The notes below the pieces were generated by a model that saw nothing but the letters and a program-made list of their open reading frames with translations, searched no databases and was not told where the DNA came from. The position numbers and the translations under genes were made by a program. From Escherichia coli (GTDB lineage: Bacteria; Pseudomonadota; Gammaproteobacteria; Enterobacterales; Enterobacteriaceae), in the NCBI RefSeq assembly GCF_003334305.1, contig NZ_QOWS01000012.1: a DNA stretch of 64,000 nt, one strand, 5' to 3'. This document shows positions 25,829 through 25,999 of this stretch, one piece after another (the stretch's first letter is position 1; every line of letters starts with the position of its first letter).

Positions 25829-25999
25829 ATGTTTATCGCCTGGTACTGGATTGTATTGATTGCTCTTGTTGTGGTGGGTTATTTCCTGCATTTGAAACGT
25901 TATTGTCGGGCGTTTCGCCAGGACAGAGACGCACTGCTTGAAGCGCGGAACAAATACTTAAACAGTACGAGAGAAGAGACAGCCGAAAAGGTAGAATAA
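25829..25999 (+). CDS. Candidate small (56-aa) single-TM membrane protein
   Basis: ORF track 64 aa from TTG 25805; ATG at 25829 with AAGGG about 7 nt upstream gives MFIAWYWIVLIALVVVGYFLHLKRY... (hydrophobic helix plus charged tail). Confidence 0.35.
   Translation: MFIAWYWIVLIALVVVGYFLHLKRYCRAFRQDRDALLEARNKYLNSTREETAEKVE

What the first reader, a model, noticed from the sequence alone, without database searches (positions are those of the whole stretch)
25829..25999. Possible unannotated small membrane protein between ribB and zupT
Downstream of the ribB terminator an ATG at 25829 with a purine-rich SD-like AAGGG about 7 nt upstream opens a 56-codon frame. It encodes one strongly hydrophobic helix (FIAWYWIVLIALVVVGYFL) followed by a basic/acidic tail, the typical form of small single-TM proteins. 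It may be a real small protein or chance.
Basis: inference. Interest (0 to 1): 0.3.

Follow-up and report, generated by a model that had tools for sequence, protein, structure and literature searches.

The report
Known small membrane protein gene yqiD
The 56-codon frame between ribB and zupT is real, but it is the already annotated E. coli gene yqiD, which encodes a small membrane protein that was detected experimentally in 2018 and whose function is still unknown.

Summary
ATG 25829, an AAGGG Shine-Dalgarno 7 nt upstream, 56 codons and TAA at 25997-25999 are all there.

It is not unannotated. RefSeq annotates exactly these coordinates as yqiD (protein YqiD, WP_000469266.1, b4756). VanOrsdel et al. 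2018 detected the identical protein by chromosomal SPA tagging and reported it as positive in a ribosome-profiling screen.

Length alone proves nothing, because 17% of shuffles of this intergenic region give an ORF as long. Conservation is decisive:
- The frame is intact in 30 of 30 species-representative loci from 7 genera.
- Every one of 5,426 complete E. coli genomes has a match.
- pN/pS is 0.04-0.21, only slightly above neighbouring zupT.

The protein is predicted to be one long helix: an uncharged N-terminal transmembrane segment, then an invariant basic motif (KRYCRAFRQDRDALL), then a variable charged tail. No Pfam, NCBIfam or PDB relative was found, and the function is unknown.

One by-product. 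A published FNR ChIP-seq peak (Myers 2013) with target listed as "Unknown", together with an anaerobically enhanced sigma-70 peak, maps about 73 nt upstream of the yqiD start. It lies beside a conserved palindrome, ATGATCAAAATCAT, which is the best FNR-like site in the window. yqiD is therefore probably induced anaerobically by FNR.

Verdict: already known, low interest.

The parts
25829..25999 (+). yqiD coding sequence: 56 codons plus a TAA stop
   Evidence: Its coordinates match the RefSeq CDS 'yqiD, protein YqiD, WP_000469266.1'. Its protein is identical to the YqiD listed by VanOrsdel 2018. The frame is intact in 30/30 species loci, while the other five frames are open in 0-2 loci.
25817..25821 (+). 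Shine-Dalgarno AAGGG, 7 nt upstream of the ATG
   Evidence: Seen directly in the sequence. AAGGG, or GGAAGG/GGAG in distant relatives, lies at the same distance in all orthologous loci.
25832..25894 (+). Codons 2-22: uncharged hydrophobic segment, the predicted transmembrane helix (FIAWYWIVLIALVVVGYFLHL)
   Evidence: The Kyte-Doolittle 19-residue mean is up to 2.43 and no residue is charged. The segment is helical in the AlphaFold2 model, where block pLDDT is 79-87. M1, I3 and W5 are invariant in alignments A2/A4.
25895..25939 (+). Codons 23-37: conserved basic motif KRYCRAFRQDRDALL next to the membrane segment. This is the most conserved part of the protein.
   Evidence: R24, C26, A28, R30, D32, R33, D34 and A35 are invariant in 18 sequences that go down to 38% identity. 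Residues 23-33 hold 5 K/R against 1 D/E.
25940..25996 (+). Codons 38-56: variable charged C-terminal tail
   Evidence: The tail is poorly conserved and varies in length between genera. The model predicts it as helical with lower confidence, pLDDT 57-69.
25712..25725 (.). Conserved palindrome ATGATCAAAATCAT, a candidate FNR operator. Its centre is 110.5 nt upstream of the ATG.
   Evidence: The arms are invariant and the spacer varies across Escherichia, Citrobacter, Salmonella and Intestinirhabdus. It is the best of 63,987 positions in the window on a PWM built from 62 ChIP-bound FNR sites, at 12.6 bits.
25706..25719 (-). Published predicted FNR site TTGATCATAATGAA (Myers 2013 Table S6, position 3181683)
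   Evidence: This is the only match in the window. It is listed in Table S6 as lying 'at FNR ChIP-seq peak'. Its left half is specific to K-12-type E. coli and is not conserved in other genera.
25745..25770 (+). Approximate position of the yqiD promoter. The published FNR ChIP-seq summit and sigma-70 ChIP-seq peak map to about 25754-25756. The exact -10 element and start site are not determined.
   Evidence: The FNR summit is at 3181647 and the sigma-70 peak at 3181649, with signal 395 aerobic against 1002 anaerobic. They were mapped to the window by anchoring on the 14-mer at 3181683, which is an inference. The block ...TATGCCAnTATATGAATA... is conserved.
26017..26047 (.). Stable hairpin between the convergent stop codons of yqiD (25997-25999) and zupT (26057-26059). 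It is probably the shared 3' end or terminator.
   Evidence: Folding gives z = -1.76 on the + strand and z = -2.97 (-25.4 kcal/mol) on the - strand. No canonical U-tract terminator was called by the scan, so termination here is inferred.
25598..25634 (+). ribB intrinsic terminator, the upstream boundary of the yqiD transcription unit
   Evidence: A 13-bp stem followed by UUUUUAUUUU, -15.4 kcal/mol, z = -3.05.

Best explanation
The frame is yqiD (b4756), a genuine and already annotated E. coli gene for a 56-residue protein.

Shown:
- Translation starts at ATG 25829, served by the AAGGG Shine-Dalgarno.
- The protein is made in vivo (published SPA-tag immunoblot and tetracycline ribosome profiling).
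- The sequence is under purifying selection.
- The gene is kept between ribB and the convergent zupT in at least seven enterobacterial genera.

Inferred from sequence:
- Residues 2-22 form a single transmembrane helix with essentially no periplasmic N-terminus.
- The cluster of five K/R right after the helix places the C-terminal 34 residues in the cytoplasm (N-out/C-in, positive-inside rule). There they continue as a helix.
- The invariant motif R-x-C-x-A-[FY]-R-Q-D-R-D-A at the membrane surface is the likely functional surface. The tail is a variable charged spacer.

Inferred from published ChIP data plus conservation:
- yqiD has its own sigma-70 promoter roughly 60-75 nt upstream of the ATG.
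- FNR occupies this promoter, and sigma-70 occupancy is about 2.5-fold higher anaerobically.
- The conserved palindrome ATGAT-N4-ATCAT, about 40 nt upstream of the peak, is the probable FNR operator. YqiD would then be made mainly without oxygen.

Most likely mode of action, by analogy only: like other small single-pass inner-membrane proteins, it binds and modulates a larger membrane protein. The partner is unknown. ZupT is a candidate only because of adjacency.

Sub-confidences: identity and reality of the gene about 0.98; topology about 0.7; direct FNR target about 0.6; modulator of a larger membrane protein about 0.4; ZupT as that partner about 0.1.
For: Identity:
- The RefSeq CDS yqiD lies at exactly these coordinates.
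- The protein is identical to the one in VanOrsdel 2018 Table. There it was detected by chromosomal SPA tag and immunoblot, and it was positive in a tetracycline ribosome-profiling screen.

Selection:
- The ORF is intact in 30/30 GTDB species loci, and the other frames are closed.
- All 5,426 complete E. coli genomes have a match.
- NG86 dN/dS over codons 1-44 is 0.04-0.11.
- pN/pS is 0.04-0.21, with binomial p down to 2e-9. zupT gives 0.02-0.14 in the same pairs.
- Variable columns by codon position are 22/17/38 of 44.

Start codon: the upstream in-frame TTG/ATG is absent in 14 of 34 loci.

Architecture: hydropathy and charge; AlphaFold2 gives a single helix over residues 3-55 with pLDDT 73; invariant motif.

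Synteny: homologues at about 40% identity still sit in ubiK-ribB-yqiD-zupT-ygiD.

Regulation:
- FNR ChIP-seq (three peak callers) and ChIP-chip peak at 3181647, labelled "5' of zupT/ribB", with target 'Unknown'.
- Sigma-70 peak at 3181649, 395 aerobic against 1002 anaerobic, adjusted p 7e-83.
- The palindrome has invariant arms, a variable spacer and a fixed distance of 109-111 nt from the start codon in four genera.
- It is the top FNR-PWM score in the window.
Against: - No experiment on YqiD function, localisation, topology or partners was found in the searchable literature.
- No transcription start site was available, so the FNR site position relative to the promoter (about -41 to -52) is uncertain.
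- Myers 2013 could not test FNR-dependent expression of yqiD because the gene was not annotated then.
- Their PWM chose the overlapping, non-conserved site TTGATCATAATGAA, not the palindrome.
- The sister palindrome in the zupT-ygiD intergenic region has no listed FNR peak. Reg-Seq found only an RNA polymerase site at the zupT promoter. The palindrome may therefore bind another factor, or may reflect back-to-back TATGAT -10-like hexamers.
- The palindrome is absent from more distant yqiD loci.
- Distant family members lie between assT and ygiC rather than beside zupT. This weakens a ZupT link.
- H21 and C26 are not conserved in the most distant homologues. This argues against a metal site.
- The dN/dS values are pairwise and not independent, and dS is saturated between genera.
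Confidence: 0.85

Rival explanations
1. Chance open reading frame in an AT-rich intergenic region. It would not be translated into a functional product.
For: ORF length alone is unremarkable: 17% of shuffles give at least 56 codons. No Pfam, NCBIfam or PDB family matches above threshold.
Against: Published protein detection and ribosome-profiling signal. The frame is intact in 30/30 species and all E. coli genomes, with pN/pS 0.04-0.21 and excess third-position variation. The Shine-Dalgarno is conserved.
Confidence: 0.01
2. The real product is a longer 64-residue form started at TTG 25805 (MLNIKGKR-MFIAW...). Its basic N-terminus would reverse the predicted topology.
For: The frame is open back to TTG 25805 in the window. 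An in-frame ATG sits at the same place in many Citrobacter loci. Several database entries are 64-74 residues long.
Against: 14 of 34 loci have no in-frame upstream start. In the loci with one more A in the A-run the upstream frame hits a stop after 6 codons. No Shine-Dalgarno precedes 25805, whereas AAGGG precedes 25829. RefSeq and VanOrsdel 2018 both use the 56-residue form.
Confidence: 0.04
3. YqiD is a dedicated accessory or regulator of the neighbouring metal permease ZupT, co-regulated with it through the shared palindrome ATGAT-N4-ATCAT.
For: yqiD is convergent with zupT, 57 nt apart, in all 32 loci of the main lineage. It stays next to zupT when a fimbrial operon separates it from ribB. 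The palindrome occurs twice in the window against 0.12 expected: once upstream of yqiD and once in the zupT-ygiD intergenic region. Both copies are conserved in three genera. H21 and C26 lie near the membrane interface.
Against: Convergent genes are not an operon. The zupT promoter is reported as constitutive, with only an RNA polymerase site in Reg-Seq. No FNR peak is listed at zupT/ygiD. Distant family members lie beside ygiC/assT, not zupT. H21 and C26 are lost in distant homologues. zupT occurs widely without a detectable yqiD, since only 22 representative clusters were found.
Confidence: 0.1
4. The conserved palindrome is not an FNR operator. It would instead be the site of another dimeric regulator, or a pair of back-to-back -10-like TATGAT hexamers left from a divergent promoter shared with the fimbrial operon that adjoins yqiD in other genomes. 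The FNR ChIP signal in K-12 would then come from the non-conserved neighbouring site.
For: Myers 2013 assigned the peak to TTGATCATAATGAA. Both outer positions of the palindrome deviate from TTGAT/ATCAA. TATGAT is a 5/6 match to the -10 consensus, and the scan called it as such. In B2-type E. coli, Citrobacter and Salmonella the region is a divergent intergenic region with a fimbrial gene. A similar palindrome at zupT/ygiD lacks an FNR peak.
Against: The invariant G/C inside the arms is not required of a -10 hexamer. The palindrome scores higher than the published site on a PWM of bound FNR sites: 12.6 against 11.1, with the training minimum at 11.1. Bound FNR sites with ATGAT or ATCAT halves exist in Table S6. 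Sigma-70 occupancy here rises anaerobically.
Confidence: 0.3

Closest known systems
YqiD of Escherichia coli K-12 (b4756; RefSeq WP_000469266.1; VanOrsdel et al. 2018, Proteomics 18:1700064)
   Same: 100% identical 56-residue sequence, the same position between ribB and zupT, and the same start and stop.
   Different: Nothing differs. The window copy differs from K-12 only at flanking nucleotides: 98.3% identity over 461 nt.
Small single-pass inner-membrane regulators of E. coli, such as AcrZ (binds AcrB), MgtS (MgtA/PitA), KdpF and CydX. This comparison rests on my own knowledge of the small-protein literature.
   Same: Size class of about 30-60 residues, one hydrophobic helix, a separate short gene with its own Shine-Dalgarno, and condition-dependent expression. 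This is the basis for the proposed 'binds a larger membrane protein' mechanism.
   Different: There is no sequence similarity. No partner, localisation or phenotype is known for YqiD. YqiD has a comparatively long (34-residue) conserved cytoplasmic helix.
Divergent yqiD allele of B2-type E. coli (WP_001296421.1, annotated 'hypothetical protein')
   Same: Same locus, same length, 69% identity, same TM segment and RYC-x-AFR-x-DRDALL motif.
   Different: The tail is different. A four-gene chaperone-usher fimbrial operon lies between ribB and the gene. This form is present in 989 of 5,426 complete genomes and is not named yqiD by the annotation pipeline.
FNR regulon of E. coli (Myers et al. 2013, PLoS Genet 9:e1003565)
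   Same: In vivo FNR occupancy, an FNR-like TGAT-N4-ATCA core, and higher sigma-70 occupancy anaerobically at the yqiD upstream region.
   Different: FNR-dependent expression of yqiD has not been measured. The peak was filed as having an unknown target. The conserved site departs from the consensus at both outer positions.
UPF0370 / YpfN, DUF2621, DUF4381, NF038143 (weak profile hits) and 'DUF4051' (a name carried by some NCBI entries)
   Same: An N-terminal hydrophobic helix followed by a basic stretch, which is what drives the weak scores.
   Different: All hits are far below family thresholds. The best is 19.8 bits, E = 8e-4, for one of 18 members. NF038143 scores 18 bits against a cut-off of 50. 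No DUF4051 hit was returned by the Pfam-A scan.

Membership tests
YqiD (E. coli small protein, b4756) | Amino-acid sequence identical or nearly identical to WP_000469266.1 | tested here: met
   The translation equals the sequence printed in VanOrsdel 2018. The RefSeq CDS on a record 100% identical over the 461-nt query carries WP_000469266.1.
YqiD (E. coli small protein, b4756) | Location between ribB and zupT, same strand as ribB, convergent with zupT | tested here: met
   ribB at 24915-25568 (+), yqiD at 25829-25999 (+), zupT at 26057-26830 (-).
YqiD (E. coli small protein, b4756) | Protein synthesised in vivo | not testable with these tools
   Taken from the literature: SPA-tag immunoblot and a tetracycline ribosome-profiling positive.
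Protein-coding gene under purifying selection | Frame kept open across species, and dN/dS well below 1 | tested here: met
   30/30 loci are open in this frame only. pN/pS is 0.04-0.21 with binomial p from 4e-2 to 2e-9.
Small single-pass inner-membrane proteins | One hydrophobic segment long enough to span the membrane | tested here: met
   Residues 2-22 are uncharged, with a Kyte-Doolittle mean up to 2.43, and are helical in the model.
Small single-pass inner-membrane proteins | Experimental membrane localisation and topology | not testable with these tools
   No published fractionation or topology data for YqiD were found. N-out/C-in is inferred from 5 K/R in residues 23-33.
Small single-pass inner-membrane proteins that modulate a larger protein | An identified binding partner | not tested
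   None is known. ZupT is suggested only by adjacency, and this is weakened.
FNR regulon | FNR bound upstream in vivo | not testable with these tools
   Taken from the literature: Myers 2013 Table S5 peak at 3181647, positive with MOSAiCS, NCIS, CisGenome and ChIP-chip. It maps about 73 nt upstream of the ATG, which is my mapping.
FNR regulon | Sequence resembling TTGAT-N4-ATCAA at a suitable distance from the promoter | tested here: inconclusive
   The palindrome scores 12.6 bits, the best in the window and within the range of bound sites, 11.1-21.3. The start site is unknown, so the distance cannot be checked, and both outer bases deviate from the consensus.
FNR regulon | Expression changes in an fnr mutant or with oxygen | not tested
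   Only indirect evidence: sigma-70 ChIP signal of 395 aerobic against 1002 anaerobic at the site. The yqiD transcript was not scored in 2013.
Pfam/NCBIfam families (DUF2621, DUF4381, UPF0370, NF038143, DUF4051) | Score above the family's curated threshold | tested here: not met
   The best hits are 18-20 bits, found in 1 of 18 members at E <= 0.001. No DUF4051 hit was returned.

The most novel reading that the evidence does not exclude
YqiD is an FNR-activated small membrane protein made when oxygen is absent, and it tunes the adjacent broad-spectrum metal permease ZupT or another transporter. This would explain both the 'orphan' FNR ChIP-seq peak of 2013 and the conserved pair of ATGAT-N4-ATCAT palindromes flanking zupT. 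The FNR-target part alone has a probability of about 0.6. The full statement including a transporter partner is much less likely.
Probability: 0.1. Interest if true: 0.5.

Novelty: already known. Interest (0 to 1): 0.12.

Why it matters
For the scan, this is a correct call of a real small gene from raw sequence, but it is a rediscovery. yqiD has been in RefSeq and EcoCyc numbering (b4756) since the 2018 study.

The residual value is modest:
- YqiD is still functionally uncharacterised.
- Combining the later annotation with older ChIP data gives a likely target for an FNR peak that was filed as 'Unknown'.
- That in turn gives a concrete condition (anaerobiosis) and a concrete cis element under which to look for its function.

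Tried and rejected
- **Family searches.** NCBIfam, Pfam on the protein and on an 18-member alignment and PDB sequences gave only sub-threshold hits driven by the TM segment. I did not file the protein under any family.
- **Rfam on 24500-27000.** Only the ribB FMN riboswitch was found. No known RNA family covers yqiD.
- **Metal-site idea (H21/C26, next to a zinc transporter gene).** Rejected as unsupported. H21 becomes C or A, and C26 is lost or moved, in distant homologues.
- **Zur, Fur, ArcA or PhoP sites.** By eye, the palindrome arms equal the Fur-box core but the spacing is 4 rather than 1. The direct repeat TGTTTA-N4-TGTTAA near the Shine-Dalgarno is one base short of ArcA or PhoP spacing. 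None of this was pursued. The supplements of the Fur ChIP paper were not available.
- **64-residue form from TTG 25805.** Not conserved.
- **ZupT-YqiD fusion protein P0118.** It sits on a single 2-kb Logan contig. Convergent genes cannot fuse by a simple deletion, so I treated it as an assembly or inversion artefact.
- **Second yqiD-like copy in E. coli.** None was found in the assT-ygiC gap of B2-type E. coli or in the window.
- **Start-site profiling data for yqiD.** The supplements of Weaver et al. 2019 are not held.
- **Simple promoter and terminator scan.** It gave one promoter-like hit that is the palindrome itself and no terminators. It was not informative.

Full report
**Observation**

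The sequence is as described. ATG lies at 25829-25831. AAGGG lies at 25817-25821, seven bases upstream of the ATG. The frame has 56 sense codons and TAA at 25997-25999. It translates to MFIAWYWIVLIALVVVGYFLHLKRYCRAFRQDRDALLEARNKYLNSTREETAEKVE.

The ribB stop is at 25566-25568. It is followed by a strong hairpin at 25598-25629 with a U-run (-15.4 kcal/mol, z = -3.05).

Residues 1-22 carry no charge and reach a Kyte-Doolittle mean of 2.43. The remaining 34 residues hold 9 K/R and 7 D/E.

ORF length alone is not evidence. 843 of 5000 shuffles of the 488-nt ribB-zupT intergenic region contain an ATG ORF of at least 56 codons.

**Identity**

A megablast of 25600-26060 against 5,426 complete E. coli genomes found the region in 4,433 of them. 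The feature under the match is annotated 'yqiD: protein YqiD'.

In a K-12 record and in a record 100% identical over that 461-nt query, the CDS yqiD (WP_000469266.1) occupies locus positions 1730-1900. These correspond exactly to window 25829-25999. It is flanked by ubiK, the FMN riboswitch and ribB on one side, and by zupT and ygiD on the other.

VanOrsdel et al. 2018 (PMC6001520) list yqiD between zupT and ribB with the identical 56-residue sequence. They report that the chromosomally SPA-tagged ORFs listed there gave specific immunoblot bands. [quoted passage not shown] A 2026 paper cites it as locus b4756.

The finding is therefore a rediscovery of an annotated, experimentally supported gene. 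No paper in the searchable library describes its function.

**Conservation**

A protein search found 108 relatives in Escherichia, Citrobacter and Salmonella. A scan of one genome per GTDB species returned 30 loci. They come from Escherichia, Citrobacter, Salmonella, Intestinirhabdus, an Enterobacter sp., Phytobacter and Kosakonia.
- The frame is intact in all 30 loci, and in every locus it is convergent with zupT.
- The five other frames over the same span are stop-free in only 0-2 loci.
- Nei-Gojobori dN/dS over the ungapped codons 1-44 is 0.04-0.11 against the window sequence.
- Uncorrected pN/pS is 0.04-0.21, with binomial p from 4e-2 (very close pairs) to 2e-9. zupT gives 0.02-0.14 in the same pairs.
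- Variable alignment columns are 22, 17 and 38 of 44 for codon positions 1, 2 and 3.
- These are pairwise, non-independent estimates, and dS is saturated between genera. The direction is nevertheless unambiguous.

An exhaustive profile search of 1.84 billion representative proteins found only 22 clusters, so the family is narrow. Two members at about 40% identity still sit in ubiK-ribB-yqiD-zupT-ygiD. Three others lie between assT and ygiC.

**Start codon**

The window frame is open back to a TTG at 25805, which would give 64 residues. That upstream start is missing in 14 of 34 loci. In the loci with one extra A in the A-run, an in-frame stop lies six codons upstream. The ATG (GTG in one locus), preceded by AAGGG, GGAAGG or GGAG, is the conserved start.

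**Architecture**

Alignments show an invariant M1, I3 and W5, and a hydrophobic stretch. They also show an invariant block R24, C26, A28, R30, D32, R33, D34, A35 within KRYCRAFRQDRDALL. The tail varies in sequence and length.

AlphaFold2 with the 18-sequence alignment predicts one continuous helix over residues 3-55 (mean pLDDT 73, highest in the first 20 residues).

From the positive-inside rule I infer an N-out/C-in single-pass inner-membrane protein with a cytoplasmic helix. This is inference, not data.

No Pfam or NCBIfam family reaches threshold, and no PDB sequence matches. An idea that H21 and C26 bind metal, prompted by the zinc-transporter neighbour, is not supported. H21 changes or C26 is lost or moved in distant homologues.

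**Transcription and regulation**

No known RNA family lies in the yqiD region. A stable hairpin at 26017-26047 separates the convergent stop codons of yqiD and zupT.

Aligning 200 nt upstream of the start in 18 loci shows a block of about 120 nt conserved in Escherichia, Citrobacter, Salmonella and Intestinirhabdus. Its most invariant columns form the palindrome ATGAT-N4-ATCAT at 25712-25725.
- The arms are invariant while the spacer varies (CAAA, CGAA, TGAA).
- The centre stays 109-111 nt from the start codon.

The pattern occurs twice in the window against 0.12 expected. The second copy, at 26881-26894, lies in the zupT-ygiD divergent intergenic region. It is conserved in the same genera with other spacers.

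The core TGAT-N4-ATCA is that of FNR sites. The supplements of Myers et al. 2013 (PMC3688515) list the following:
- An FNR ChIP-seq peak with summit at 3181647 (U00096.2), labelled "5' of zupT/ribB". It was called by three algorithms and by ChIP-chip.
- The target of that peak is given as 'Unknown'.
- A predicted FNR site TTGATCATAATGAA at 3181683.
- A sigma-70 ChIP-seq peak at 3181649 with significantly higher anaerobic occupancy, 395 against 1002, adjusted p 7e-83.

The 14-mer occurs once in the window, at 25706-25719 on the minus strand. This anchors the coordinates. The summits lie 34-36 nt further towards yqiD, at about window 25754-25756, which is about 73 nt upstream of the ATG. That mapping is my inference. 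It agrees with the yqiD coordinates given by VanOrsdel for U00096.3 and with the 1,977-nt length difference between the two MG1655 versions, which I take from my own knowledge.

I built a PWM from 62 ChIP-bound FNR sites of Table S6, leaving this locus out.

| Site | Window position | Score (bits) | Rank in window |
|---|---|---|---|
| Conserved palindrome | 25712-25725 | 12.6 | 1 of 63,987 |
| Published site | 25706-25719 | 11.1 | 4 |
| zupT/ygiD palindrome | 26881-26894 | 10.1 | 9 |

The training sites score between 11.1 and 21.3.

The most economical reading is that the orphan FNR peak of 2013 sits on the yqiD promoter, and that yqiD is anaerobically induced.

Caveats:
- No transcription start site is available.
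- FNR-dependent expression has not been measured.
- The conserved palindrome deviates from the consensus at both outer bases.
- The sister palindrome has no listed FNR peak, and Reg-Seq found only an RNA polymerase site at the zupT promoter.
- The palindrome is absent from the more distant loci.
- TATGAT is also a good -10 hexamer.

**Mechanism**

Committing to the most likely picture:
- YqiD is a small N-out/C-in inner-membrane protein.
- It is expressed from its own FNR-occupied promoter, mainly without oxygen.
- It acts through its invariant membrane-proximal basic helix by binding a larger membrane protein, as AcrZ, MgtS, KdpF or CydX do. That analogy comes from my own knowledge and carries no homology.

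ZupT is a candidate partner only through conserved adjacency and the shared palindrome. The family members beside ygiC/assT and the reported constitutive zupT promoter argue against it. I put it at about 0.1.

**Comparison and novelty**

The gene is YqiD itself, so this is already known. It is not a member of any curated protein family. The FNR link appears not to be stated in the papers I could search, but it is a small, literature-derived inference that needs one simple experiment. Interest is low.

**Things seen in passing**

Every complete E. coli genome has a yqiD homologue, in two allele classes.
- 989 genomes carry a version only 69% identical in protein (WP_001296421.1, annotated 'hypothetical protein').
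- In the three such genomes inspected, a four-gene chaperone-usher fimbrial operon lies between ribB and yqiD.
- In the window the corresponding operon lies between glgS and ubiK.
- Homology between the two arrangements begins at 25711, exactly at the palindrome edge.

Several Citrobacter and Salmonella loci also have about 3.7 kb between ribB and yqiD.

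Noticed in passing
window 25712-25725 and 26881-26894: The palindrome ATGAT-N4-ATCAT occurs twice in 64 kb against 0.12 expected, once on each side of zupT. One copy is upstream of yqiD and the other is in the zupT-ygiD divergent intergenic region. Both have invariant arms and variable spacers across Escherichia, Citrobacter and Salmonella. The first coincides with a published FNR ChIP-seq peak. The second has no listed FNR peak.
   Followed up: partly
L002 2119-2289; L034 3675-9390; L035 3606-9327 (E. coli genomes): E. coli is dimorphic at this locus. 989 of 5,426 complete genomes carry a yqiD allele only 69% identical in protein, annotated 'hypothetical protein' (WP_001296421.1). In the three such genomes inspected, a four-gene chaperone-usher fimbrial operon lies between ribB and yqiD. 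Homology with the K-12-type arrangement starts at window 25711, at the edge of the palindrome, and ends near codon 36. P0013 looks like a recombinant of the two alleles.
   Followed up: partly
window 19023-23968 (-): A chaperone-usher fimbrial operon (ORFs of 354, 124+128, 837 and 183 residues) lies between glgS and ubiK in the window. The chaperone-sized gene appears split into two overlapping ORFs, 20089-20463 and 20460-20846, which suggests a frameshift or pseudogene.
   Followed up: no
window 25794-25813: A conserved direct repeat AAATGTTTAGTATTGTTAAAT (TGTTTA-N4-TGTTAA, 10 bp start to start) lies just upstream of the yqiD Shine-Dalgarno in Escherichia, Citrobacter and Salmonella. It is one base short of ArcA or PhoP box spacing, and its role is unknown.
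   Followed up: no
L039 1498-1722; L040 3001-3162; L042 3001-3204: Distant members of the YqiD family (about 45-50% identity over the first 44 residues, with tails of the '...RRWRE...' type) lie between the assT-dsbL-dsbI cluster and ygiC, convergent with ygiC and not beside zupT. No such copy exists in the window or in the B2-type E. coli loci.
   Followed up: partly
This matches the core of the Fur box (ATGATAATCAT, my recollection of the consensus). It is absent from the window and from the Escherichia, Citrobacter and Salmonella loci.
   Followed up: no
L036 1499-1876: A 125-residue ORF (P0118) joins the first 70 or so residues of ZupT to a YqiD-like C-terminal half. It sits on a single 2-kb Logan contig. 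It is probably an assembly artefact or a local inversion.
   Followed up: no
window about 24923 (MG1655 U00096.2 3182480): Myers 2013 also list a weak FNR ChIP-seq peak labelled 'ribB', called by one algorithm only. ribB and yqiC (ubiK) appear in their Table S12, the aerobic-versus-anaerobic comparison, with values of 0.46 and 0.42. I did not read the column header, so I do not state the direction of the change.
   Followed up: no
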